Below are positions 16,101 to 34,445 of a stretch of 64,000 bases of DNA, in pieces; within the stretch, counting starts at the first letter, position 1, and every line of letters begins with the position of its first letter. The position numbers were made by a program, and so were the translations under genes. The notes beneath the pieces are model-generated. The model worked only from the letters and a program-made list of their open reading frames with translations. It had not been told where the DNA came from and searched no databases. Origin of the DNA: Lingula anatina (Eukaryota; Animalia; Brachiopoda); assembly GCA_051362555.1 (NCBI GenBank), contig CM120646.1, positions 8,618,001 through 8,682,000 on the forward strand, written 5' to 3'.

Positions 16101-19100
16101 ACTAATATGCAGGAAGGAGTTCCATGTGCCCTGTTATACAGGTGCAGGAGAGGTATATGGCAGGGGTCATGTGCACGCACACGTGTAGATTTGTATTTAA
16201 GTTTAGAAGGCTTTCTAAAGTTGTGATTAAAATATTCCTATAGATGTACTTGCTCTTTATGCTGCAGTTTACTTGGAGACATGGCAACCTAGTGCCTTTT
16301 CATGAAGAATTGTGTTGTAGCCCTTTACTCTGAATACTCCACTGTAGAACCAGCACATCTTATGAATGATTTATGATCTGGGCCAGCCCACTTTCATCAT
16401 TTTCCATGTGATCTGCATGTTAAAGAATGGCAACAGTGTTAACTGTTTAATTCCTGAATGCTTATCTACTTCATTATCTCAGATTTCAGTTCCTTCAGCT
16501 AATGGCTATGTCTTTGTTCATTTCCGCAAGTTTTGTGGTTAAAGATGCAAAAAGAAACATGTTTTAGCAGTGATTTACAAATTCTGCTGATAACATTGAC
16601 ATCAGCATTATTTATTTTCAGTATTTTACTTCAACTAGGGTGTTATGTGGAAAAGAAAATTCTTAAGTAAGAATAACTTATTATTTCAATGTATTTAGAT
16701 TTAAATTATAAATTAAATAAAAGGGCTCTTGATTTTTTCGGTTTCACTCATGAATTTGGAACACAAGACTTTTGCTGGTTTGAAAGACTTTGGAGGAGAG
16801 ACTGAGAGACTAAATATTCCCTTATTCATATTATGTATTCTTATGAAGCTTAATTTTTTTCAGTGCTCTGCCCCAAAGCAGCTAACTAAGATGTTATTTA
16901 CTGATATTTTGCCAGTGTTTCTTAGTCTGCCATCACTTGAACATCCCTTGCTGTTTTGAGCTGCCAATCCTAAAAACACAATATAATGAGCTTTTTAATT
17001 TATTTATGACTTTCTCAAGGAAAGATGATGAGGATGATATTGTTCTCTGATTGTTTGGCACTGTGCCTGACTGTGCATATATTACCTTACATTATTGCTA
17101 CTTTTCCACGCCCTCTTTTCACGTGCTTGATACAATCCTGTTTTTTTAAGCGGTATATTATTCATGAATTGGTTAAAGTGCATGAAATATTCATGATGAA
17201 GGCTTTAGGAATAAGAAAGAATCCATAAGTTTCTGATTTGCATTAGTCAATTAGAGTCGAACTAAATTTGACCTGCTGCTAATTGATTTTATACCTATAT
17301 TTGTTAAATATAAAAACTAACCAATGTAAAGAAGCATATGTTAGTCACAGTATAGTATATTAAATTATAATTTGATTAATTAATACTACAATATAATTTT
17401 TACAGAGAATAGAGTCAGTATACACTCGTCCCAAAAGTTCAGAAAGATGATTATTTTGAATAATTAAAGAATAACCATATGAGCTAAAGTAAATATTTTA
17501 ATCAAATATTGATGGATAATGTACCTACCAATTCATTACTTCTTGAAATTTCTGTGGGATAACAGCAATATTTATGAATGTGGGTTCTTAATTTCATTTT
17601 CACAAATCCTGCAAATGAATGACAAAGTTTGAAGTTTGTACTTTTAGCAAGTCTTGATGATAAACAGTAAAAATCTTTATTTTAGGCATAATGTTTTAAA
17701 ATAAAGTCTTGAGGTTACTCACCATAAGTTTCGTGTGAAGCCTTCAGTGTTTTTTGTCAAGACTTGCTTACTAGTAAGCTTTGTCATCTTCATGACAGTA
17801 AAAACTTTTACTGACTTTTGTCATTTTGATGCCAAATGTAGCTTGGATGTTTGGAGAAACAATACAGATAAAACTCCTGTGTGTATAGAAGTTAATCAAA
17901 CAGTGCCACATCTTATATCCACAGAATTGTTTCTAGGAAAGGAAAAATAAGCTGGAAGAACATTGGCTTAGTCTCTTCTAGCATGTTGTATGGTGTCACA
18001 ACCAGCACAACATTGACAAGTTTGTCACAACTAATAGAATGTAGCAAACTCTTGCCACCACTAGTATTGTTAGAGCACTATAGTTTTCAGCTGATTACAA
18101 AGTAATTTAACACCATAGACTAAAAGTGTTCATTTTGTTTCAGAAGTAGGAATGAATGGAGACATGGGACACAGTGACTTACAGTCAAGATCTAATACAG
18201 GCAATGCCGTTTCAGATATACAGAACAAAGCCCTGAATCTGGTATGTTATAGATCACAAATATATAGCATAACATCTTACTGTGATAGGATTTCCAAGAC
18301 TTTTTGTATGTGTTGAATTATCTGAAACAGTGCATTATAATTTAGAACCTGGCTGACTGGAATCAGAAATAGCATGGTCCTGCTTAGGTGAATGGAAGGC
18401 TTAATGCAGAATTTAAAAAAATTGGTGCAGTAAGGGACCTTTTGTGACCAGTTCCTCTGGTGGCACTTAAAAACTTACTTTTTAAGGCACTGTTGTTCTT
18501 AAGGATATTGTTAGCCTTTGCCAAGAACTCCTTGTTTACTAGATTACATACATTCTTTTCAATAACAGATAAATCTTCAGTATTCAGTGACTAAATTAAG
18601 GATATTGTTATCTTTTATTATTGTCCAGGTACTAAAAATGAGTTTTTTTCTACGTCTAATTATTTAATAATTCATGTCTTTTTGCTGATTTAAAACAATG
18701 TTTTGCAATGAGAGATATAAATGCCAATATTTTATATTTTTGAAGGCATTTTCATTGCTTTAAACCATCACAAACATAGATGCATTTTTATTAGATGCAT
18801 GAAAAATCTCATTTTTGGTATCTGGATGATAATAAAGGCTTACAATATCTTTAACATGTATTTTCCTTGTGACAGAGGCACCCGAGTAGATTTTGGTTGT
18901 TACTTTGAGAGTATTCACATCGAGAAGAGCCATACCCATTATTGAGGTCTTGCTAGACCTCGGCTCTTCTCAATGTGAATGCTCTCTTAGAGTACAAAAC
19001 TTGAGACCCTAGTCGAGGCGACGCTTAATATTATTTTGACAATTTAAGTACTTTAGTTTGTTACTTATAATGGTTTCACATTTTTTCTAACAGACCACAC

Positions 19101-22100
19101 TTGTGAACCCTTCCCAGACTCAAACAAGCATGGCTCAGACACAGGCACTGTTTGTCCAGAACTTACAGCCACAGTTTGCTATAGCGCAGCCTGGGTTCAT
19201 CATCAGCAACCAGTTTGGTCAACAGGTAGTATGGTCACTGGGATATGTTAGAACAACTCTTGCAAGATAAGGTTTTATAAAGAAGAGATTTATGAAGAAA
19301 AACTTGTTTACTATGAAGCTGACCAATTGTTTGCAACTCATGTCTGGATAAATTTTACAGTGAAAAAATTAAAAAAATTCTTGTTTCACACCTCAGCTCT
19401 CCATGGGTGCTGCAGGAGCCTTTGCAGGTATCCAGATCACTCCTCAACAACTACAACAACTGCAAGAATTACAACAACAGCAGCAGCAACTTTTACAACA
19501 ACAGCAGCAAGGACAACAACAAGGACAACAACAGATAGTGCAACAACAACCTCACCAAAACCAGCCACAGGGTCAGCAACAGCAACAACAGCAGTCCCAG
19601 CAGCAACCAGCTGTATTATCCACAAGTCAACCTAATATACAGGTAATAGATCAGCAACCAGCTGTATTATCCACAAGTCAACCTAATATACAGGTAATAG
19701 ATCAGCAACCGGCTGTGTGGCGGCACAAATTGTCGCTGGCACAAATTGTCGTCCTTAGGTGGTGACAAATTGTGTAGTTATTGATGGCACAAATTGTCGC
19801 CGGCACTAATTGTCGACCTTTGGTGGCAACAAACTGTGTATGCATAGGCCGCACAATTTGTTGCCCTGCACAAATTGTCGCCAGTTACAATAATGTATAC
19901 AATAACTTCTGTGCGTACATACAAATGAAGGGTTCGCTAGCAAAAGTAAATAAATCCAGTCCGACAAGTGACCCATTTGAATGAATGCGCCACCCTGCTG
20001 CTTTAGCACTAGTTAATTAATAATAAATAAATTAATTTGTGCCGTCAATGCCTACACAATTTGTCTCCACCTAAGGACGACAATTTGTGGCGGAGACAAT
20101 TTGTGCTGTCACACGGCTGTATTATCCACAAGTCAACCTAATATACAAGTAATAGATCAGCCAGGAGGAGGGCAGTTATTACGTATGCCAGTATTGAGCA
20201 GGGGAGTAATAATGATTGAGCTTTTTTCCTGAAATTTAATTGTAGATTAAAGTTACTGTACTTCTGTAGATAGATACTGTAGATAAATTAGGGTGGTTTA
20301 GGCACAATTCAACAACTGAAATCAGCAACCAGTTGGATTGGGTTCTGTCAGGTAGATATTCATGGAAACTTATCAGACTAGTTTGCTGTTCTTCTCCATG
20401 TTGTAAAGGAAATAATCTCAGGAAGGAAATGCAACAAGTGGTTACCACTGCTGTTGATCGCAAAGGCCCAAAGGAATAAATTAAGGGGATTAAAAATTCC
20501 TAACAAACAGATCTTAATAGCATTTTTATGTACAGACACAGATGTGTCTGTACATATTGCCATCACCTGCGTCTGTCGTCGCCGTCGCCGTCGCCGTCGC
20601 CGATGCCGATGCCGGCGCCGTGCACTTTCCTTGTAAACACGATAAGTGGAGGGCAGTTTTACTTTTTGGCTTTATATTTACAGAGCTGATGAATATTCAT
20701 AAAACGCAGGTCAAGTTCGAAAATCAGCATGATCGGGCCATTATTGTAGAAGTTATGCTGTTTTTTCACTTTTCAGCATATATGCAACCCTGTAAACACA
20801 TTTTAAGGAAAACCGTTAGGCCTGTTGTCATGAAACTCACAGGAGTAATCAATCTTACTAAAACGCAGGTCAAGTTTGAAAATCGGCATGATCGGGCCAC
20901 TATTTTAGTAGTTATGCTTTTTTTTTCACTTTTCAGCATATATGCAACACTGTAAACACAATATAAGAAAAACAGATAGGCCAATTGTCATTAAACTCAC
21001 AGGAGTGGTCAATCTTACTAAAACGCAGGTCAAGTTCGAAAATCAGCATAATCGGGCCATTATTTTAGAAGTTATGCTGTTTTTTCAAAATTCCTCAGAT
21101 TCAACTCTTAGGCATGTTAACAGTCTCATTATTGAACTAATAAGATACGTAAAAGTGTTTTTTTGACATTTCCTGCATCTTTACAACATTGTTAGTTGAT
21201 TATGTAAAAATGATGGTAAACTTGTTATTGTGTATTGTGTAATAAAGTTTCAAAAATGGAAATAAACTCATATCATTGCAGTTTGTCAGATTCAATCATT
21301 CACTATGTTCAGAATCTCAGAATGGAGGAAATTGGACATTCAACACTGTTGTATTGATATTTTTCCAATCTCATCAATTTTCTTAGTTTATTGTATAAAA
21401 ATGGCAGTAACCTGTTAATTTTGTTTTATGTTAAAAAAAGTGTTAAAAATGGAAAAAAAAACATTTCAGAACAGTGCTGTCTTGTTTACATTCTGGCATT
21501 TTCAAGTTGTGACTTGGAAGTTCCATGTGCCTGAAGACCTTTGCTAGTCACATTTTCTGAATATCCATGATACTAATATTTTATTATTAAAAATTGATGA
21601 TCATTATGCTGTTAAACATTATGTAATATTGCATCAAAATTTGAAAAAAACCTATTTTGGGCACTGCTCCCATGATGACCATTTAAGAAAAACCATGTCA
21701 CTTACTGTTCTCAAACAGTACAGTAAATATGTACAGATGTGTCTGTACATATTGCCATCACCTGCGTCTGTCGTCGCCGTCGTCGCCGGTGCCGACACCG
21801 TGCACTTTCATTGTAAACATGATAAGTGGAAGGCAGTTTTACTTTTTGGCTGTATATTTACAGAGCTGATGAATATTCATAAAACGCAGGTCAAGTTAAA
21901 AAATCAGCATGATCGGGCCACTATTTTAGTAGTTATGCTTTTTTTTTCACTTTTCAGCATATATGCAACACTGTAAACACAATATAAGAAAAACAGATAG
22001 GCCAATTGTCATTAAACTCACAGGAGTGGTCAATCTTACTAAAACGCAGGTCAAGTTCGAAAATCAGCATAATCGGGCCATTATTTTAGAAGTTATGCTG

Positions 22101-25100
22101 TTTTTTCAAAATTCCTCAGATTCAACTCTTAGGCATGTTAACAGTCTCATTATTGAACTAATAAGATACGTAAAAGTGTTTTTTTGACATTTCCTGCATC
22201 TTTACAACATTGTTAGTTGATTATGTAAAAATGATGGTAAACTTGTTATTGTGTATTGTGTAATAAAGTTTCAAAAATGGAAATAAACTCATATCATTGC
22301 AGTTTGTCAGATTCAATCATTCACTATGTTCAGAATCTCAGAATGGAGGAAATTGGACATTCAACACTGTTGTATTGATATTTTTCCAATCTCATCAATT
22401 TTTTTAGTTTATTGTATAAAAATGGCAGTAACCTGTTAATTTTGTTTTATGTGTAAAAAAGTGTTAAAAATGGAAAAAAAAACATTTCAGAACAGTGCTG
22501 TCTTGTTTACATTCTGGCATTTTCAAGTTGTGACTTGGAAGTTCCATGTGCCTGAAGACCTTTGCTAGTCACATTTTCTGAATATCCATGATACTAATAT
22601 TTTATTATTAAAAATTGATGATCATTATGCTGTTAAACATTATGTAATATTGCATCAAAATTTGAAAAAAACCTATTTTGGGCACTGCTCCCATGATGAC
22701 CATTTAAGAAAAACCATGTCACTTACTGTTCTCAAACAGTACAGTAAATATGTACAGATGTGTCTGTACATATTGCCATCACCTGCGTCTGTCGTCGCCG
22801 TCGTCGCCGGTGCCGACACCGTGCACTTTCATTGTAAACATGATAAGTGGAAGGCAGTTTTACTTTTTGGCTGTATATTTACAGAGCTGATGAATATTCA
22901 TAAAACGCAGGTCAAGTTAAAAAAATCAGCATGATCGGGCCATTATTGTAGAAGTTATGCTGTTTTTTCACTTTTCAGCATATATGCAACACTGTAAACA
23001 CATTTTAAGGAAAACTGATAGGCCTGTTGTCATGAAAATCACAGGAGTAATCGATCTTACTATAATGCAGGTCAAGTTCAAAAATCAGCAAGATCGGGCC
23101 ACTATTTTAGTAGTTATGCTTTTTTTTTTCACTTTTCAGCATATATGCAACACTGTAAACACAATATAAGAAAAACAGATAGGCCAATTGTCATTAAACT
23201 CACAGGAGTGGTCATTCCTGCTAAATCGCAGGTTGAGTTCAAAAATCAGCATAATCGGGCCATTATTTTAAAGAAATGCCGTTTTTATGTACAGACACAG
23301 ATGTATTTTACCTGTTGAGCATAATTTAAATTTGATGTTGAATTTGCAGTTTAACATAATGTACTTTTGCATCAGAATTGACAGTAGCCTTTTTTGTTAT
23401 TTCCTGCTTTTTGTCTGTACATTTGACAGCTTTGCTGCCTTGTTGATTAATAAATATGTAGTCCATGGGACATTTTTAAATTAAGTTATTAGTGTGTTAT
23501 TCTGTGTTCAGGATGCTTTCCCCACTGTGTCAAAGTTATAGGCAGTGTATGAAATGGCCGCCTGCCCGCCAGCCCGAGGCTGGTAACTTTCAGGCCGGGC
23601 GGGTAAGATTTGCAAATTACCCGCCCGACGGGCTGGCTAATTTACAGCCTATTTTCACCTTTTATTTTGTCTATGTTCACAAGCGATTCAGCAAAATAAA
23701 CTCACTGTTTTCACACACTTTCATAGAAGCAAAGAACTAACCATAGCTTGCAATCGAACGCTCGTATCGAAATGTAACCAACAGTCTCCCTCTCAGTGGC
23801 CTCGTTTTCGAAGTTCCGTCTGTGTGATATGAAGTTGAAAGACAATTTGAAACGAGGCACATCTTTCTTAACCAGCTTCAGTGACACAGCAGATAACGTA
23901 ACGTCATTGTTTTCTGTAGAGGAGATACCGCGAGTACTAATTTGTAGGTTGAGAGTAATAAAAATGTGAAAGTATAAAAAGTTATGATATTGATTAAATA
24001 GACTTATAGGTACATGAAGTGCTTATAATCAACAGTAATAAAGGCAACGGAGGCAAATTAAAAGAGAATTTTACAAAAATTTGAATCCCAAAATTATGAG
24101 TGAACGTACGAGTTTACGCCGTGCATCAGATGTACATGTAGTTCTTTTCCCACGTGCTTTCATCTTGGGCTGTCAAAAACGAAAAAAATTCTATCAAGTC
24201 CGATAGAGAAGTTCACAAAAGAAAAACAATCGAGGAAAGAAATAAAAATAACAAAGATTACGACAGAACCAAACGAAAGAGAACAAATTGGGACCCATGG
24301 AAATTAAGGTGACTTCAATTTGCAATTAGTCGAACGGCAACATTTTTTGTAAAACCGTAACTCGAAAGTGTCACGCATTGCGACCGAGCGCAAGCATCTC
24401 GATCCAATAACTCTCCCATATTCGCCCCATATAATATATTGTAGCCTCTATGTGATATATATATATATATATCCAAGATGGCGCCGTCCTATGGCGACAT
24501 GATCTGTCGCGTTGTAGTATTACTTGTTATTTTACTTCCAATTTTTAACTTTACTATTGGATACATAACTTATTCAAGAGAGGAGCTGCTACGGGTCAGA
24601 AATACTCATATTGAGGGGAGCTATGACTTGTTGGGAGGACTAAATCAGGTTGACTTTATTACCAGTACCGACTATGAAGATTCAAATACGCGGCGGAAGG
24701 GGCGAAAGCGAGGTAAACGAGGTGGGGCTCTAGTCAGGCTGCGTAACCGCGGAAATCGATCCCCGCTGCCGAGCATATTTCTCATAAATGCCCGATCGTT
24801 ACGCCATAAGGTGGATGAGCTTCACGGTCTTATCAGTACCAATCGAGATTACAGAGATTGTTCAGCCTACTTTATCACAGAAACGTGGCTCAATAACCTT
24901 GTCCCGGATGCGGCCATTCAAAGTCAAATCCCGGGATTCACGTTATACAGATCTGACCGATTATTCGACACCGTGGACAAAGATCGTGGTGGTGGCGTGT
25001 GCCTCTTGATCAACGACTCCTGGTGCAATAACGCGAAGGTACTATCCAGATGCTGTACCAAGGAACTAGAGACTCTAGTCATCAAGTGCCGCCCGTTCTA

Positions 25101-26744
25101 CTTGCCACGAGAGTTCACATCAGTCATTCTTACAGTTGTATATATTCCACCCGATGCGGACGCCAAGTCGGCCATCAGTCAACTCACACAGATTATAACA
25201 GACTATGAAAATGCAAACCCAGGAATACTGTCTATCATAGCAGGAGATTTCAACCACACAAACCTGAAAAAGGGTTTACCTAAGTATTTTCAACATGTAT
25301 CGTGCCATACTAGGAAAGATAAAACACTAGACCACTGTTACACAACGATCAGGGGTGCTTATAAATCACTGAAATGACCACCATTGGATAAGTCAGACCA
25401 CAACATGATCCATCTCGTCCCAGCATACAAACAACAGCTGAAGCGTGAAAAACCGGTACGTAGAGTAATTCATCAGTTTAGTGAGGACGCAATAGAACGA
25501 CTTCGTGGCTGTTTTGCATGCACTGACTGGGACTTATTTCTCCGGGATGCAGCTGATCTTGATGAATGTGCTGAAGTGACAATGAGCTACATAAAATTCT
25601 GCGAGGAATTATGCATTCCGAGTAAAACTGTTACATCATATCCAAACAACAAACCTTGGTTTTGTTCCTCAGTACGTAAACAACTTGTGGCCAGACAGGA
25701 AGCATTCAGATTGGGCAATTTGGACGCTATCAAGCGGTCAAAATATGACCTGCGCCGGGCCATCAAGCGCGCTAAGTTGCGGTATAGAGATAAACTTGAG
25801 GCAGACATCTCCAGCTGTAATTCTAGCTCTGGCAGGGAGTGAACAAAATCACCGGCTACAAACCTAAAACCAAACTCTCACCCACGGATGACACCAGCCT
25901 ACCAGACAAGTTGAATGAATTCTACGCCCGCTTCGACAGACCAAATACTATATCTCCTATCATCTGTTCTCGAGATAAAGAAGCACCCTTCCAGCTGTCG
26001 GAAGAAGACACCCGGCTTGGTCTTATTAGATTGAAAGTTAAGAAAGCGGCAGGTCCGGATGGGATTACACCTAGGTTGCTGAAATTATGTGCCGAGCTTA
26101 ACGTTAAAAAGACAAAAGAAATTATTGTAGATTTTAGGAAAAACCCAACAGAAATTAGCCATCTTACGCTGAATGGTTCTGAGGTTGAAATAGTCAGACA
26201 TTTCAAATTTCTTGGCATACATATATCTGATGATCTTAAATGGCACATTAACATAGATGATATTGTCCGCAAAGCTCAGCAAAGACTCTACTTTCTACGA
26301 CGATTGAGGTCATTCTATGTCAACCAAGAACTGCTGGCAAAATTTTACCGGGCTGTGATTGAGAGTGTGCTAACACAATCTTTCACCGTCTGGTACAGTA
26401 GTGCTACAGTAGAGGACAAGAATCGCCTCAACCGCGTAGTAAAAACTGCCAGGCGCATTGTAGGTAGGGACCTGCCGTCTATTGAATGTTTGTATACGAG
26501 ACGAGTGCTCAAGAAAGTAAAGTCAATCACGAGTGACCCTGGTCACCCAGCGAATAGCCTACTTATGCATATGTCAACAAGCCGACTGCGGTCATTAAAA
26601 GCAACCTCCACGCGCACTAAGAATAGTTTTTATCCATCAGCAGTACGTATTTTTAATGAACAAAATGTATTTTAATAATTCCACTGTATCACATTTTATC
26701 GACAGATCATACCAACTTTCATTTTATATTTGTATAAATATGAC

Positions 26745-26808
<64 letters not shown>

Positions 26809-29800
26809 CTATTCTCAATAAGCAATGCTTTCGAGATACGGGGCCCTGCAGGACTGTCTACGGGCAATTAGCGTGCAGGACCGTTCCCGACCGCTTTTTA
26901 AAGCTTAAAAGCGATATTCAAAGGGGCCCTCATGCTGAATTTTTTCTTCTTTATTGTCAGCACAGAGATCGATTTATTTGACAACAATATATATATTTGG
27001 TCATACTTGTTGCTATACAGAAAAGCAAAAATTATGATCAAATGATACCACGAAATCAGAATAATAGTTATAAATAAATTATTGAAGAAGAAATGAGACT
27101 ACCCCCGCCCTCCCCCGCCCGCTAAAGGGCCCTGAAAATTTTTGGTATTTTAGATGGTGAATGGTGCCATTTGGTATGGTTTAGAACTATGATTCAACTA
27201 GTGAAAGTCTTATTTCAAGAGGTGAGTTTTTTTTTTTTTTTTTTTTGCAGAAATTAAAAGGGAGGCGTCAGGACCCCCCTGACCCCCCTCTAAATCCAAC
27301 ACTGACAAGGTACCATTCAGTAGAAATTCCAACCAATTTCTAAATTTCCATGCATAAGGCATGATATTGCCCTTTCATTTCCAAATTACTCTCCCAAGAA
27401 TGCATTCTAGACCCCCTCAGCATACCTCTCTTAACTGTAGGGGTTATCATAACTAGGGCAGGTAACTACATGGCCGGGCTGGTAACTTTTCAGAGTTACC
27501 TGCCCGGCGGTCTGGCTAGTAATTTCCTTGAATTTCATACACTGTTATAGGTATGTGTTATTGTGTTCAGGATGCTCTTCTTACTTTGTCAAAGTTATAG
27601 GTATGTAATATTGTGTTCAGGATGCTCTCCCTACTTTGTCAAAGTTATAGGCATGTAACATTGTGTTCATGATGCTCTTCCTACTTTTTCAAAGTTATAG
27701 GCATGTAATATTGTGTTCAGGATGCTCTCCCTACTTTGTCAAAGTTATAGGTATGTAATATTGTGTTCAGGATGCTCTCCCTACTTTGTCAAAGTTATAG
27801 GTATGTAATATTGTGTTCAGGATGCTCTCCCTACTTTGTCAAAGTTATAGGCATGTAATATTGTGTTCATGATGCTCTTCCTACTTTTTCAAAGTTATAG
27901 GCATGTAATATTGTGTTCAGGATGCTCTCCCTACTTTGTCAAAGTTATAGGTATGTAATATTGTGTTCAGGATGCTCTCCCTACTTTGTCAAAGTTATAG
28001 GTATGTATAGAACAGTTTCATTAGCTATGTTATTATAATAGACTTGTGAAGATTCTTTTGTCTATAGCTATTTATATTAGTTTGATCTTACCATCCAATA
28101 TTTCATCTGCTTGCAGTCAGATTTCATCAGGGAATGAGGTTGTGACAGGTATGACAACCTGTCACCCCCTCTGGTGTGCTATTTGGTCATCGGAGAGACA
28201 GGACGTTCCTTAACTGAAAGAATCGCTGAACATCAAAAATCGATCAAAAAACATGATAAAAAATCTGCCCTCAGCCAACACCAGGAACAGACAGGGCATT
28301 GTATAACATCAACAACCATAGAAGACATAATAATCTTGGAAAGAGAGCCACGAGATCTACACCGGAAAGTTCTTGAAGCAATTAACATCCGCTTACATGG
28401 GGCCAAGTTGAATCGGAATGATGGGACTGAGCTACCCAACCTCTACCTACCACTCCTAAGGGAGGGGCAGGCAAGGGGGGGGGATCTGACCAAATAGCAC
28501 ACCAGAGGGGGTGACAGGTTGTCATACCTGTCACAACCTCATTCCCTGATGAAATCTGACTGCAAGCAGATGAAATATTGGATGGTAAGATCAAACTAAT
28601 ATAAATAGCTATAGACAAAAGAATCTTCACAAGTCTATAGGTATGTAATATTGTGTTCAGGGTGCTCTCCCTACTTTGTCAAAGTTATAGATATGTAATA
28701 TTGTGTTCAGGGTGCTCTTCCTACTTTGTCAAAGTTATAGGTATGTAATATTGTGTTCAGGATGCTCTCCCTACTTTGTCAAAGTTATAGGTATGTAATA
28801 TTGTGTTCAGGGTGCTCTCCCTACTTTGTCAAAGTTATAGGTATGTAATATTGTGTTCAGGGTGCTCTTCCTACTTTGTCAAATTATAGGTATGTAATAT
28901 TGTGTTCAGGGTGCTCTTCCTACTTTGTCAAAGTTATAGGTATGTAATATTGTGTTCAGGGTGCTCTTCCTACTTTGTCAAAGTTATAGGTATGTGATAT
29001 TGTGTTCAGGATGCTCTCCCTACTTTGTCAAAGTTATAGGTATGTGATATTGTGTTCAGGATGCTCTCCCTACTTTGTCAAAGTTATAGGTATGTGATAT
29101 TGTGTTCAGGATGCTCTCCCTACTTTGTCAAAGTTATAAGTATGTGATATTGTGTTCAGGGTGCTCTTCCTACTGTGTCTGTCCAGCAGCCCTTACAGAC
29201 ACAGCCACAGGTGATGGCCGTGGCCCAGCCTGGACAAGGGGGCCAGCAGTTACAGCAGTTTGTTCTCCTCAACCCAGCCCAGCTACCTCCATCAGTCCAG
29301 CCACAGTTCCTGGTCCCTAACCAACAGGTGAGCACAACACTTGCCACAGAACACAGCTACTGCTGCTCATTACCATAGTCAATTCTTGGGAAGATTTCTT
29401 GGATTTTATTCTGACTCAGTTACATCTATAAGAAGCAATAACATAGGGAATTTTAGTATTTCAGGAGATTATTGAATTTCATGAGAAATTAATCCCTGTG
29501 TTTGCTTAGGTCATTATGTGCAATGTTTTGATTACTGAGATGTTGTCAGAAAAGTGATACTAAGTTTTTGTTCTTCACTCATATTGTTGAGTGCAAACAC
29601 AAGAAAAAGAGTTATAAAGGAAAGCTGAGAAAATTATATGAATAAATTTACCATCTCTTACTGTATGGAAAAAAATGTGCAATTTTTGTACCACGATTTT
29701 TCAGGGACTGTTACAAGGTGTTACCATGGCGACCAGTGTCCCCTCTGTGATGGTTCCCAGCAGCAGTCAGTCCGCAGTGAGGACCCAGTCTCCAGCCACC

Positions 29801-32800
29801 ACCAGTACCGTGGCTAATACTCAGGCTGGCCTCACATCACCATTAGCTCTTAACCAGGTACCATTTGATGCTGGTTGTAGTGGGAGTGCATAAATAGTTG
29901 ATGATCTTTTAAAGCATCTGCTTTGCTATAGTATACATAGAAATACAGAGAATAAAGTCTTTAGAGTTCAAATGTTATAGCTCTACTGTTTTAAAATGAG
30001 TGATAGTAAGTTCAATTTTATATGTATTTTATATAATTATACCTTTAAGTAACTTCTAAAATTAGATTAGTAAGGTTATGATAATAGATATGTTTTCTTT
30101 AAAATTAATCTATTTTTACTGTAATGAAGTGTTTCTGTATGTTTTTGCTGAGAATTAAGAATCTTGGACTAGCCATGATGCATGCACATATCTCACCGCT
30201 ACCTGTGAATGGTGTCATATTTGTGAAGTCACTGAGTACATACTGAGAACTGAGAAGCTACTGTGTTGGCAGATCCAGGGATGGAAAGGGGCAGTGGGAC
30301 ACAAACTAATGAATGACCTCTTTATTTGTATTTCAAAAAGAGAGAAAATATATGTGTATAATCTTGTGCGCGTGTGTGTGTATGTGCTTGTGTATCTGTG
30401 TGTGTGTGTGCGCATTGGCCTCCCCTCTGATATCTCTGGATCAGCCAATAGCACTCTAACCCAATGTTCTCGTAATACTAAATTTGCTCTAAATAACAGC
30501 AGGAGTACTAGTTGACATGAATTTTTTTTAATGAATTATCTAAGATATTAAAAATCAGGTTGTAACACATTGATGAAACTTATTCTTGCAAATATGAACC
30601 TGGTTTACAGAATTCAGAATATATATGCTACTTACAGGAGACCCTATTCTGGGGAAGACACTTAACCTTCATTAAAAGTATAGACTAACCCTACATTTTA
30701 AGCAGATTATTAATTCTGTAACATCAGTCTCATGGGCATTAATATCACTTAGTGTAGTAGAACAAGTATTTTCCCTAAAATAAAAATGCGATGTATGCAT
30801 TAATACTTGGATAGATTCCCTTTCATTTGCAGCAGCATATTGGCATGTATTATGTACATAAAAGAGGGATAACATAGCTGGGTACCTGTGAAAATAGACA
30901 ACGATTCAAATTTTCTCCTATAGATAAGCCCTCTCTGTTAGAAAATCTTTCTCATTTTCCACTTAAGCTTTCCCTTGTTCAGCATGTGAAACAGTTTTTA
31001 TAAGACATGTCAAAATTAAATTTCTAGACAGTTCTTACTTTCAGTTTTGATACTGCATAAGACACTCTAGCTGTAACCTCTTCCAAATTTTATCTTTTTG
31101 ATTCCAAAACTTAGCTATAAATATAATATTAACTAATCAGTCCAGATCTTAGAGCTCACAACCAGTGGTGCCATTTAGTGGTGAATCTTACCCTGCTTTG
31201 TATGGCTTTATTTATATCAGCCTGAAGAGAGCTGTGAACTTGACGACCTTGAGCGCTTTGCTAGGCTTTTTAAACAACAGCGGACAAGGCTAGGTAATGT
31301 ATTAGATAGATGTGATCAGCAGCAACCCTTTCTGGTATCTACAGAGCTTCTCACAAGTTACACACAAAGAAGGGAAGTAGATGGTCTATCAAAGCTAATC
31401 TTGATATAGGCTCACTGTGGCAGCTCCTCTCCCCCCTCCCCCTCCCCCTCCCCCTCCCCTCTTGAAGCTAGCCCTAGAATTTGAGGACCATGAATCTTGA
31501 GGTGTCCCTCACACTTTTGGACAAGGCTAGGTAATGTATTAGATAGATGTGATCAGCAGCAACCCTTTCTGGTATCTACAGAGCTTCTCACAAGTTACAC
31601 ACAAAGAAGGGAAGTAGATGGTCTATCAAAGCTAATCTTGATATAGGCTCACTGTGGCAGCTCCTCTCCCCCCTCCCCCTCCCCCTCCCCCTCCCCTCTT
31701 GAAGCTAGCCCTAGAATTTGAGGACCATGAATCTTGAGGTGTCCCTCACACTTTTGAGGGTGGACCTCCTGCCAGGTACAGGGATGATCAACAGTGTCTT
31801 CTCTCCTGCAAGCTATATATTCTGGAAAACGTGGTATGATATGATGTGGTGGGTTTTTGTTGTACTAGGTTATGTACTTAAATAAGGAAAACTTTGTCTT
31901 GTTCCTCTAACAGCAACAAGATGAAAATATTGACCTAGAAGAACTAGAACAATTTGCAAAGACATTCAAACGGCGGAGAATAGAATTGGGTAAGCAATGC
32001 TTGTGATGTTTAAATGGATGATGACAGGAGGTGTATTCAGTTTTATGTTTTTGTTTAAAAAAGGTACTACTGGAAAAAATATTTCTTACATATGTGCAGA
32101 GTGTCAAGTTCCTATTTTTTCCTATTTTTTGGTGATATTCCTTTTTTTATTTTCATCTTTTTCCTATTTTTTGGCCTGGAAATTGTGTTTAACTTATGTG
32201 TCAAGTCATGTAGGTTATCAGAAAATAAGATGTGAATACCTTGGTCAATATTGAACTGTTTGTGAAAGTTTTGAAAAATTTGGCAAAGGCATTGGCCAGC
32301 AGCACTTGGGTCTACATGCCCTGGTAAAGTACAGTGCAGGAAGGTGAGGAGATTACACAAAACTTCAGGTAACGTTGCATGTTTTGATGCCTATGTATGG
32401 AACATACTGAAGTCTTTTGGCTGGCATCTGACTAAACCTGCTACTTGTGACTCGTGGTATTCTTGACCAGTGGGATGCCATGTCTGAATTCATCAAAATG
32501 TTGCCAAAGGATGTGAAGAAAGCATCATAACCCATCAACTACACAAGAACAACTATGATAAAATTGTGTGATTGTTGAGATACTTGTTGCATTGAAAACT
32601 TGTCCCCTCACCTTCCTATTTGGCACGTTTCGCACCAGAGATTGTCCAACGGATATGCAATATGAACTGAGATTATACAAATACATTATTTTGATTAATT
32701 TTGAAGCTTTCTATCTATTTTTCTTTTGATTATGTTAATTCAATGAAAATATATGTGTATGTTGGTTTGAAATAGGATTAATACTTGTATCCTATTTGTT

Positions 32801-34445
32801 ATTTTTATTTAATATTTATTTATTTACTTTTTGGACTTAGAATCTCCGAAAGCTCCAATGAGCAGTTCCTCAAATCATCTGAAAAAAATAGTTCAGAGTC
32901 GAGAAAAAGAACCCAAATATAAATAATGAGAGAGCCAGTGAATGTTCACACAACGAAATTGTGGTTTAGATTGTGAATTTAACATTCACGATTACAAATC
33001 CACAGCTCATAAAACACAAATTGCATTTATTGTTCATGAGGCCTGAAAAATCGAAAGCAAAACAGTCAGTAGTAGGAACAAAAAAGTTGTCCATTAAAAA
33101 AAATTGATTATTCACTGGTTAAGAAAACTAAAAAATGTTAAAGCATGTTTTCGTCAGTTAACATGATTGTTTTTACTACGGAAGCACAATGTATGATATG
33201 TATGTCCCTTTCAAACAGATTTGTTACAGTTACAGGACTGAATATTGGTAACTTATTACTTTCTGTTGCTGTCTTAAAGTTTGTTAGACAAATGTTTGTT
33301 TTTACACTAAATAATGTTTATTACGGAGTGTTGGGAGGCCATCTTTCTTATAAAATAATACCTATTTTTCCTAATCTTTTGTAGTAAAATACCCATTTCC
33401 TTACCTATTTTATTGAATATTTTTTCCCATTTTGCTGAAAGGTATATTACAACTTGACACCCTGTACATGATATATCCACTAAAAGGTTTATGGCAATCT
33501 CGGTGCAAATTTTTCCTAATAATTTAAAACAAAGAAATTTAAAGATGGGAGAGAGAGCTCCTAATGTGAAAGTGTTGTTTCTTTGTGATCAGGTCATTGT
33601 GGTGTCATCAGCTTGTGTAACCTTGCAAGATATCATTCCACACATGTAACTTTATATTATTCTTTCCAGGGTTTACTCAGGGAGATGTGGGCCTGGCCAT
33701 GGGAAAATTATATGGCAACGATTTCAGCCAGACAACAATATCCAGGTTTGAGGCCCTAAACCTCAGTTTTAAAAACATGTGTAAGTTAAAACCTCTCCTA
33801 CAAAAATGGCTTGAGGATGCTGACCAGCTGACCAATAATCCATCTGCATTGACTGCCGGGTCGTCACCAGTTACACCAGAGTCCATTGGGCGACGGCGGA
33901 AGAAGCGCACAAGTATTGAGACCACTATTCGTGTCTCCCTTGAAAAGAGCTTCCTACAGAACCCAAAACCCACCTCGGAGGAGATCTCTATTCTGGCAGA
34001 CTCAATGAACATGGAGAAAGAGGTAGTCAGGGTATGGTTTTGCAACAGGAGACAGAAAGAGAAAAGGATCAATCCACCATCCAACACCTTGATGAACCAC
34101 ACATCACTGAGCATGCCCAGTCCACTTCCTCCCATCAGCCCCACATCCATCATGGCGCACACATGTCTACCTACAAGCATTGCTACGCCTTCATCACTGG
34201 GCCTCACAAATCATGGGTCCCATCCTGTCAACCTGATTAATACCTCCCAAGTGTCTAATAATAATAATAATATTAACTCACAAGTGACCAGTGCTTCCCC
34301 AATTATCACTACTGAACTAAACACTGCTGGCCTGAACACCACTGACTTGACCACAGCTGGTATGACCACAATGGCCAATGTTGGCCTGTCTGCTGGCAAT
34401 CAGCATATTAACTCTGTAGCTGAGGAGAGAGCGGAACCAACTTGA
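13192..34445 (+). CDS. POU2F1: Class II POU-domain transcription factor (Oct-1/POU2F1/nubbin-pdm family), multi-exon
   Basis: Phase-consistent GT-AG exons: 13192-13248, 18144-18241, 19094-19225, 19397-19642 (poly-Q), 29160 (or 29187)-29327, 29705-29857, [31221-31293 or 31914-31989], 33670-34445. They encode [64 protein letters not shown] and the homeodomain [10 protein letters not shown]...[15 protein letters not shown], diagnostic of POU class II. The N-terminal exons are less certain than the domain exons. Confidence 0.95.
13406..15142. mobile_element. Kolobok-like element carrying nested insertions
   Basis: TTAA|AGGCATAGGGGTGA ... TCGCCACCTATGCCT|TTAA, i.e. TIRs with a TTAA TSD. Confidence 0.55.
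13936..14227. mobile_element. Palindromic MITE (~290 bp)
   Basis: Inverted arms of about 125 bp, AGAATGAGTAGAGCCGAGTGCTAGCTAGG... / ...CCTAGCTAGCACTTGGCTCTTCTCATTCT, with a short spacer. Confidence 0.8.
19601..20160 (+). repeat. 51-bp tandem triplication spanning the poly-Q exon donor
   Basis: CAGCAACCAGCTGTATTATCCACAAGTCAACCTAATATACAG|GTAATAGAT at 19601 and 19652. The third copy at 19703 is split by a MITE and resumes at 20114. Confidence 0.95.
19716..20113. mobile_element. 398-bp MITE with TGT...ACA ends and a 6-bp TSD
   Basis: TIRs of about 60 bp, repeated internal (G)CACAAATTGTCG motifs, and TSD CGGCTG at 19710-19715 and 20114-20119. The empty site matches the sibling repeat units. Confidence 0.85.
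20523..23444 (+). mobile_element. Helentron/DINE-like element as a head-to-tail concatemer
   Basis: Same 5' and 3' hallmarks as 1170-4294. The body restarts at about 21731 and 22752 (1021-bp period, near identical), and a further 5' terminus appears at about 23283. Confidence 0.8.
23543..27544. mobile_element. hAT-like non-autonomous DNA transposon hosting a LINE
   Basis: Perfect 13-bp TIR CAGTGTATGAAAT/ATTTCATACACTG, GC-rich subterminal motifs, and TSD TTATAGG (23536-23542, 27545-27551) inside a minisatellite unit. Confidence 0.8.
24473..26752 (+). mobile_element. Rex1/Babar-like (CR1/L2 group) non-LTR retrotransposon, defective
   Basis: Single-ORF layout with APE motifs ([44 protein letters not shown]) and C-terminal RT thumb motifs ([31 protein letters not shown]). 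Lesions: TGA at 25375, a frameshift near 25825, and the RT core missing at about 26095. AATAAA precedes (TA)n; (TA)n also lies on the 5' side. Confidence 0.9.
28092..28136 (-). ncRNA. Second copy of the hammerhead motif (inverted pLTR)
   Basis: Reverse complement of 28540-28584. Confidence 0.65.
28540..28584 (+). ncRNA. Minimal type I hammerhead ribozyme motif
   Basis: CATTCC-CTGATGA-A-ATCTG-actgcaag-CAGAT-GAAA-TATT-GGATG: core boxes, a 5-bp stem II, a palindromic AATATT stem III and a short stem I. Located in a Penelope pLTR, where such motifs are known. Confidence 0.7.
31221..31293 (+). CDS. Alternative (divergent) POU-specific helix-1 exon A: [24 protein letters not shown](G)
   Basis: tttatatcag| acceptor and G|GTAATG donor; 73 nt, phase 0->1; open frame that aligns without gaps to POUs residues 1-24. 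Confidence 0.8.
31282..31755 (+). repeat. 237-bp tandem duplication starting in the last 12 nt of exon A
   Basis: 31282-31518 appears identical to 31519-31755. It copies the exon A donor and a (CTCCCC)n tract. Confidence 0.95.
31914..31989 (+). CDS. Canonical POU-specific helix-1 exon B: [25 protein letters not shown](G)
   Basis: ctctaacag| acceptor and G|GTAAG donor; 76 nt, phase 0->1; near-identical to Oct-1 POUs helix 1. Confidence 0.95.
32097..33464. mobile_element. Old hAT-like deletion derivative
   Basis: TIR CAGAGTGTCAAGTT / AACTTGACACCCTG, subterminal (TT)CCTATTT repeats, and a remnant [10 protein letters not shown] peptide near 32463. TSD not preserved. Confidence 0.5.
33670..34445 (+). 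CDS. POU2F1: Terminal POU2 exon: rest of the POU-specific domain, linker, homeodomain and S/T-rich tail
   Basis: tctttccag|GG TTT ACT CAG (phase 1), open to TGA at 34445. AATAAA at 34490. Confidence 0.98.

What the first reader, a model, noticed from the sequence alone, without database searches (positions are those of the whole stretch)
31221..31989. Two tandem, frame-exclusive exons give the Oct-1/POU2 factor a switchable POU-specific helix 1
Seen: between the phase-0 exon ending at 29857 and the phase-1 exon starting at 33670 lie two exons with canonical AG/GT ends, both phase 0->1. Exon A (73 nt) reads [24 protein letters not shown] and exon B (76 nt) reads [24 protein letters not shown]. 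Including both or neither shifts the frame, so only one can be used. Their DNA is very diverged, yet A has no stop or indel and keeps L6, L9, E10, F12, A13, F16, K17, R20, L23 and G24 (Oct-1 POUs numbering), which suggests an old duplication under selection. Established: in Oct-1/Oct4, helix 1 carries partner surfaces (L6/E7 for OCA-B and SNAP190, I21 for the PORE dimer and Sox2 interface), while base recognition is by helix 3, which lies in the shared exon. Exon A changes E7->D, Q11->R, T15->L, R19->Q and I21->T. Inference: one gene makes two isoforms with the same octamer specificity but different cofactor or dimer choice. I do not know of this being described for class II POU genes, but I cannot search.
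Basis: partly seen in the sequence, partly recalled or inferred. Interest (0 to 1): 0.85.

Follow-up and report, generated by a model that had tools for sequence, protein, structure and literature searches.

The report
Second helix-1 exon in brachiopod Oct-1
The Oct-1-type gene of a lamp shell carries an old second copy of one DNA-binding-domain exon that keeps the helix core but changes its outer surface; it likely serves as a rarely used alternative that would change the protein's partners, though no RNA read here proves it is spliced in.

Summary
Observation confirmed. The gene is POU2 (last exon identical to a protein named Lingula anatina POU2F1). Exon A (31221-31293) is a tandem duplicate of the helix-1 exon B (31914-31989), with the ancestral 73-nt length, P-E-E start and phase 0->1. 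It was kept by selection: synonymous sites saturated, flanks unalignable, fitted omega about 0.2 (neutrality rejected, p 0.004-0.008), changes confined to the exposed helix face. Scored with a published human POU2F3 mutational scan, none of its changes is null-like (about 2 in 10,000 neutral copies do as well); its two largest losses against B are E7D and I21T, known partner surfaces. Against: all 12 listed junction reads from the upstream exon go to B, none is listed for A (shallow test; one run has 66 bases compatible with one spliced A read); no exon-A protein or second exon in other animals was found; an exact 237-nt duplication copies A's donor. Recent death cannot be excluded. Verdict: likely a minor, lineage-restricted mutually exclusive exon, FoxP-like in origin, not found in print for POU genes; use and function unproven.

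The parts
29705..29857 (+). Upstream constitutive exon of POU2, ends in phase 0
   Evidence: Matches P0002 residues 479-530; RNA depth and joint to exon B; splice sites
31221..31293 (+). Exon A: diverged tandem duplicate of the POU-specific helix-1 exon, 73 nt, phase 0->1, open, AG/GT intact; candidate minor alternative exon
   Evidence: inclusion in mRNA not shown
31282..31755 (+). Exact 237-nt tandem duplication; the second copy repeats the last 12 nt of exon A and its donor (second GT after 31530); very recent or an assembly error
   Evidence: use of the second donor would read into a stop
31914..31989 (+). Exon B: canonical spiralian-type helix-1 exon, 76 nt, the major form
   Evidence: In P0002; 12 junction reads 29857->31914 in 4 of 4 runs
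33670..34445 (+). Shared last coding exon: POU-specific helices 2-4, linker, homeodomain, C-terminus, stop
   Evidence: 100% to P0002 556-813; Pfam Pou and Homeodomain above cut-off

Best explanation
Exon A is an old tandem copy of the POU2 helix-1 exon whose protein sequence has been conserved by selection, and it is likely a minor alternative to exon B that would give a POU2 isoform predicted to fold and bind the octamer as usual but to pair differently with partner proteins. Shown: duplication, matching phase, intact sites, B as the default form, changes on the exposed face. Inferred: A is chosen in some stage or cell type not well sampled here; B wins by default through stronger sites (donor GTAAG against GTAAT, pyrimidine fraction 0.75 against 0.65); transcripts with both exons stop 65 nt before the last junction and would be removed by nonsense-mediated decay; I21T would weaken the Sox/PORE interface and D7 with a basic residue 22 gives helix 1 the Oct6-like state, so isoform A most likely cooperates less with SoxB and coactivators than isoform B.
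For: A vs B: 40/73 nt, differences by codon position 5/10/18 of 24, pS about 1.0, pN 0.32, 8 of 10 identical residues use different codons, flanks no better than shuffles. Codon likelihood: omega_A 0.1-0.2, divergence 1.5-3 substitutions per site, omega=1 rejected at p 0.004-0.008 in 4 of 4 settings; a B-like omega of 0.02 is also rejected. With the helix axis set from B alone, changed positions face outward (p 0.0007-0.001; 0.00015-0.0003 among neutral simulations with as many changes). POU2F3 mutational scan (PMC12755459, supplement file 2, parts 1-3 of 13 read): A keeps 8 of 9 intolerant positions, the ninth (E7D) scores -0.02 against a median of -1.33, K14R is the only fully tolerated change there; summed loss A -3.1, B -2.5, neutral copies median -12, reached by 32 of 191,638. 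D7-D8 occur in class III, R14 in Oct-2, L15 in Oct4, Q18 in Oct-1. A keeps the 73-nt P-E-[E/D] start seen in most related loci. X1 has about 66 bases in the exon-A bin and none in either neighbouring bin, compatible with one spliced read.
Against: No joint into or out of A is listed; 12 of 12 listed junction reads from 29857 go to B; X4 and X7 have no depth on A; X3 depth there is continuous with intron, i.e. unspliced. The collection holds one protein for this gene, with B. No exon-A-like protein: 2 candidates, none E<=10; 0 hits; 0 of 359 helix-1 instances; only the best 120 of 5,602 and of 6,468 hits were seen. No second helix-1 exon in 32 of 32 related loci. Death within the last 0.1 substitutions per site costs only 0.8-1.4 log units. 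A first core test gave only 8 of 11 kept, P 0.05. T21 occurs in 0 of 359 instances and scores -0.62. No RNA docking structure above shuffles. The scan is of single changes in a human protein that depends on OCA-T1.
Confidence: 0.62

Rival explanations
1. Exon A was a functional alternative exon for a long time but has recently gone out of use and is now a silent relic.
For: No listed junction; not in the annotated protein; an exact 237-nt duplication has hit its donor; death at d<=0.1 is not excluded.
Against: Frame and both sites intact; no null-like change; RNA test too shallow to list even the obligatory B->33670 joint; all 12 changes arising after death is about 4 log units worse than continued constraint.
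Confidence: 0.22
2. Exon A is real and used, but the isoform is a near-equivalent, relaxed copy with no distinct partner choice.
For: 10 of the 12 differences from the POU2F3 residue score above 0 in the scan, most near wild type; omega about 0.2 fits relaxed constraint.
Against: The two largest losses against B sit at E7 and I21, both partner surfaces; a redundant copy is not expected to last to synonymous saturation (inference).
Confidence: 0.08
3. Exon A works as a poison exon, or is included together with B, rather than replacing it.
For: A+B gives a stop 65 nt before the last junction; an AG 7 nt into B would give an in-frame double-helix protein.
Against: A poison role does not explain residue-level selection on a helix core; no A->B joint listed and B's acceptor is 31914 in all 12 reads.
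Confidence: 0.05
4. Neutral junk from a local duplication, or an assembly artefact.
For: This gene has several tandem repeats that include splice sites.
Against: Neutrality rejected; A is too diverged from B to be a haplotype copy; sense-strand reads lie across the region in X3 and X1.
Confidence: 0.03

Closest known systems
FoxP/FOXP1 alternative forkhead exons (PMC3002244; abstract and section 15 read)
   Same: Tandem duplication of an exon within the DNA-binding domain of a transcription factor, giving two alternative isoforms with an intact fold.
   Different: FoxP changes base-contacting residues, is bilaterian-wide and has both forms shown in RNA. Here the recognition helix is shared, the swapped part is the partner-binding helix, no other species is known to have it, and form A is not shown in RNA.
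Class II POU genes (Oct-1/POU2F1, nubbin/pdm)
   Same: Same domain and the same helix-1 exon boundaries as related loci.
   Different: 0 of 359 helix-1 instances seen resemble A. Nubbin isoforms PB/PD (PMC5995344, PMC5851638; search listing only) are recalled to differ outside the POU domain.
Paralog differences in POU helix 1: Oct4 versus Oct6 positions 7 and 22; LEELE motif of POU2F3 (PMC5286379 passages; PMC12755459 sections 9-10, passages and supplement)
   Same: The same positions (7, 21, 22) tune partner use without removing DNA binding.
   Different: There the variation lies between genes; here it would lie within one gene by exon choice.

Membership tests
Class II POU (POU2) gene | POU-specific domain, linker and homeodomain | tested here: met
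   Pfam Pou and Homeodomain above cut-off
Class II POU (POU2) gene | Closest to Oct-1/Oct-2/POU2F3 among POU classes | tested here: met
   Best solved-structure hits Oct-1, E 2.5e-76, class III 6.6e-62; no tree built
Mutually exclusive exons from tandem duplication (FoxP type) | Two homologous exons in tandem between the same constitutive exons | tested here: met
Mutually exclusive exons from tandem duplication (FoxP type) | Same phases; each alone keeps the frame, both or neither break it | tested here: met
   nearby alternative AGs would be exceptions
Mutually exclusive exons from tandem duplication (FoxP type) | Each exon is spliced into mRNA | tested here: inconclusive
   B: 12 junction reads. 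A: none listed, threshold 3 reads per run, 6-25% of each run read; 66 bases in X1
Mutually exclusive exons from tandem duplication (FoxP type) | The two exons are not found in the same mRNA | tested here: inconclusive
   No A->B joint listed, but too few reads
Mutually exclusive exons from tandem duplication (FoxP type) | Purifying selection on both copies | tested here: met
   shows past selection, not present use
Mutually exclusive exons from tandem duplication (FoxP type) | Pair conserved in related species | tested here: inconclusive
   Absent from 32 of 32 loci (25 distinct exons, 19 with >=700 nt upstream; whole intron not shown to be covered; none shown to be a brachiopod or phoronid)
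Mutually exclusive exons from tandem duplication (FoxP type) | A mechanism of exclusion (steric, RNA docking, decay) | tested here: inconclusive
   620-nt intron argues against steric block; duplex energies not beyond 12 shuffles in 5 tests (best: 1 of 12 reached it); frame allows decay of A+B
Mutually exclusive exons from tandem duplication (FoxP type) | Tissue- or stage-regulated choice | not testable with these tools
   Runs are coded, tissues unknown
Dead duplicate (pseudo-exon) | Neutral divergence from the parent exon | tested here: not met
Dead duplicate (pseudo-exon) | Stop, indel or broken splice site | tested here: not met

The most novel reading that the evidence does not exclude
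A brachiopod POU2 gene switches the partner-binding helix of its POU-specific domain by mutually exclusive splicing, so that one gene yields an Oct-1-like form that cooperates with SoxB and a form with an Oct6-like, Sox-weak surface: the within-gene equivalent of what vertebrates do with POU paralogs. Exon A's Q18 and basic residue 22 match non-spiralian POU2, so the pair may even predate the mollusc-annelid-brachiopod split.
Probability: 0.4. Interest if true: 0.75.

Novelty: new variant of a known kind. Interest (0 to 1): 0.52.

Why it matters
Helix 1 of POU2 is nearly invariant (348 of 359 instances seen are one of two sequences), so a naturally selected variant with 12 changes is a ready-made separation-of-function allele: it tests which surface residues set Sox and coactivator choice. 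If used, it is a case of splicing that swaps a cofactor surface inside a DNA-binding domain while leaving the recognition helix alone. Its reach is limited so far: one lineage, minor or unproven expression.

Tried and rejected
No whole genome is held. No indexed RNA holder was listed; nine runs came by species label, four were laid on 29600-33990. Protein searches with the exon-A read-through found nothing; these need several shared words or E<=0.001 and are weak for 25 residues. Four alignments meant to favour exon A were misaligned and not used; A5 was used and returned canonical forms. Cluster members of mollusc, arachnid, insect and unnamed POU2 proteins (at most 15 listed per cluster) show no alternative helix 1. 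Upstream exons could not be located in the metagenome loci. One search used an identity threshold of 13 where 12 is observed; corrected. RNA docking sites: no signal; the inverted repeat over B's acceptor is not beyond shuffles (9 of 12). Origin of A from a class III gene rejected: its boundaries are those of the class II exon. Age from Q18/R22 left open: R->Q is one transition at a CpG codon. No fold or complex of isoform A was predicted, so its fold rests on the helix-face test and the mutational scan. Earlier scan findings: none.

Full report
1. Observation. The last coding exon is 100% identical over 258 residues to P0002, which its sources name POU2F1 of the brachiopod Lingula anatina and which uses exon B. 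Either exon alone gives an open frame; both give a stop 11 nt into B, 65 nt before the last junction; neither gives a stop in the last coding exon.

2. Origin. A scan of metagenome contigs for the spiralian-type helix-1 motif gave 32 loci, 25 distinct exons; most have a 73-nt exon starting ag|CCN GAR (P-E-D/E) and ending G|gt, a few are 3-9 nt longer or shorter. Exon A has exactly this length and start, so it is a tandem copy of the class II exon. A and B share 40 of 73 nt, differ at 5, 10 and 18 of 24 first, second and third codon positions, and have pS about 1.0 and pN 0.32; their flanks align no better than shuffles. The duplication is old.

3. Selection. Four tests. (a) A codon likelihood with the mollusc-type or arthropod-type peptide as ancestor fits omega_A 0.1-0.2 and rejects neutrality (p 0.004-0.008) and also B-like strictness. 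(b) With the helix axis defined from B alone, the 10 changed positions of 19 face outward; among neutral simulations with 9-11 changes the chance is 0.00015-0.0003. (c) A cruder core test was weak: 8 of 11 kept, P 0.05. (d) An independent experiment: the deep mutational scan of human POU2F3 (PMC12755459; sections 9 and 10, passages, and parts 1-3 of 13 of supplement file 2 read; its supplementary PDF could not be read). Exon A keeps 8 of 9 intolerant positions; E7D scores -0.02 (wild type 0.57, median of changes there -1.33); K14R is the only fully tolerated change at 14; the worst is I21T at -0.62. Summed loss is -3.1 for A and -2.5 for B; 32 of 191,638 neutral copies with 11-13 changes do as well. 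The scan measures single changes in an OCA-T1-dependent human cell line, so it is a proxy. D7-D8, R14, L15 and Q18 each occur in other POU proteins. These tests show past selection; death within the last 0.05-0.1 substitutions per site costs only 0.8-1.4 log units and is not excluded.

4. Use. Four of nine listed RNA runs were laid on 29600-33990; 6% (25% for X7) of each was read and 118 reads lay there. The only listed joint is 29857->31914, with 2, 4, 1 and 5 reads. No joint touches A; the listing needs 3 reads from 2 starts, and the obligatory B->33670 joint is not listed either, so the test is shallow. X4 and X7 have no depth on A. X3 has sense-strand depth continuous with intron. X1 has about 66 bases in the exon-A bin and none in the bins beside it, which fits one spliced read but does not show it. 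Taking 0 of 12, A is below about 22% of junctions in these samples (one-sided 95% bound, my arithmetic); tissues are unknown. The collection holds a single protein for this gene.

5. Spread. No exon-A-like protein was found (0 of 359 helix-1 instances among 391 proteins held; only the best 120 hits of each large search were seen). None of 32 related loci has a second helix-1 exon (best other score 16), but 26 of them carry one peptide type, only 19 of 25 distinct ones have 700 nt or more upstream, and none is shown to be a brachiopod or phoronid. So the pair looks lineage-restricted, on weak evidence.

6. Mechanism. B is the default (shown). A has a weaker donor +5 position and pyrimidine tract. 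The 620-nt intron argues against steric exclusion and no docking structure stands out, so exclusion most likely rests on regulated site choice plus decay of A+B transcripts by the 50-55-nt rule (recalled; inferred). Base recognition lies in helix 3 of both subdomains (PMC4245813 passage), which is in the shared exon, and A keeps R20, so octamer binding is predicted to be unchanged. Helix 1 carries the LEELE coactivator motif (L6, E7, L9, E10); Oct4 21Y,29R abolishes Sox2 cooperation and positions 7 and 22 separate Oct4 from Oct6 (PMC5286379 passages). A has T21, D7 and R22. Oyster Sox2 and POU2-3 bind a Sox-Oct motif synergistically and conserve I21 (bioRxiv 10.1101/2023.09.13.557528, passages), so a SoxB partner is the most plausible one to be affected. 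That OCA-family coactivators are vertebrate-restricted and that E7 contacts SNAP190 are recalled, not checked.

7. Known systems and novelty. It works like the FoxP alternative forkhead exons (PMC3002244); membership among mutually exclusive exons is met on anatomy and selection and open on expression. Searches of the open literature (listings only, except the papers named) gave no report of such exons in a POU domain; one search returned 0 papers; most subscription papers are not searched. Rating: new variant of a known kind.

8. Verdict. Observation confirmed; interpretation partly supported. Functional minor alternative exon with altered partner surface 0.62, recently dead 0.22, others 0.16. 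Interest 0.52; 0.75 if the splicing and the partner switch are shown.

Noticed in passing
window 31282-31755: Exact 237-nt tandem duplication that repeats the end of exon A and its donor; very recent or an assembly error.
   Followed up: partly
window 19601-19716, 27544-28007, 28631-29179: Further tandem repeats that include splice sites of this gene: a 51-nt unit with an exon end and GT, and 50-nt arrays whose unit holds the acceptor and first bases of the exon at about 29160. A ready route to exon duplication.
   Followed up: partly
window 18137-19759 against P0002: The database protein repeats about 170 N-terminal residues that map to one set of exons in the window; the public model probably rests on an assembly with a duplicated segment.
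   Followed up: partly
window 24445-26675 and 28138-28497: ORFs in an intron of POU2 that look like a LINE endonuclease/reverse transcriptase and a GIY-YIG endonuclease remnant (labels by eye, recalled, not tested).
   Followed up: no
window 31909-31929 and 32148-32168: 21-nt inverted repeat (86%) whose first arm covers exon B's acceptor; not beyond shuffles in a duplex test.
   Followed up: yes
L019 (as oriented) 3391 and 3735: The start of the shared POU exon occurs twice, the first copy breaking off after about 24 codons.
   Followed up: no
P0122, P0041: Proteins with two POU-specific domains in tandem, the first diverged; real or gene-model artefacts.
   Followed up: no
L001-L032: 26 of 32 loci carry a helix 1 with G8, K11 and E15, a variant not seen among the 359 database instances.
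   Followed up: no
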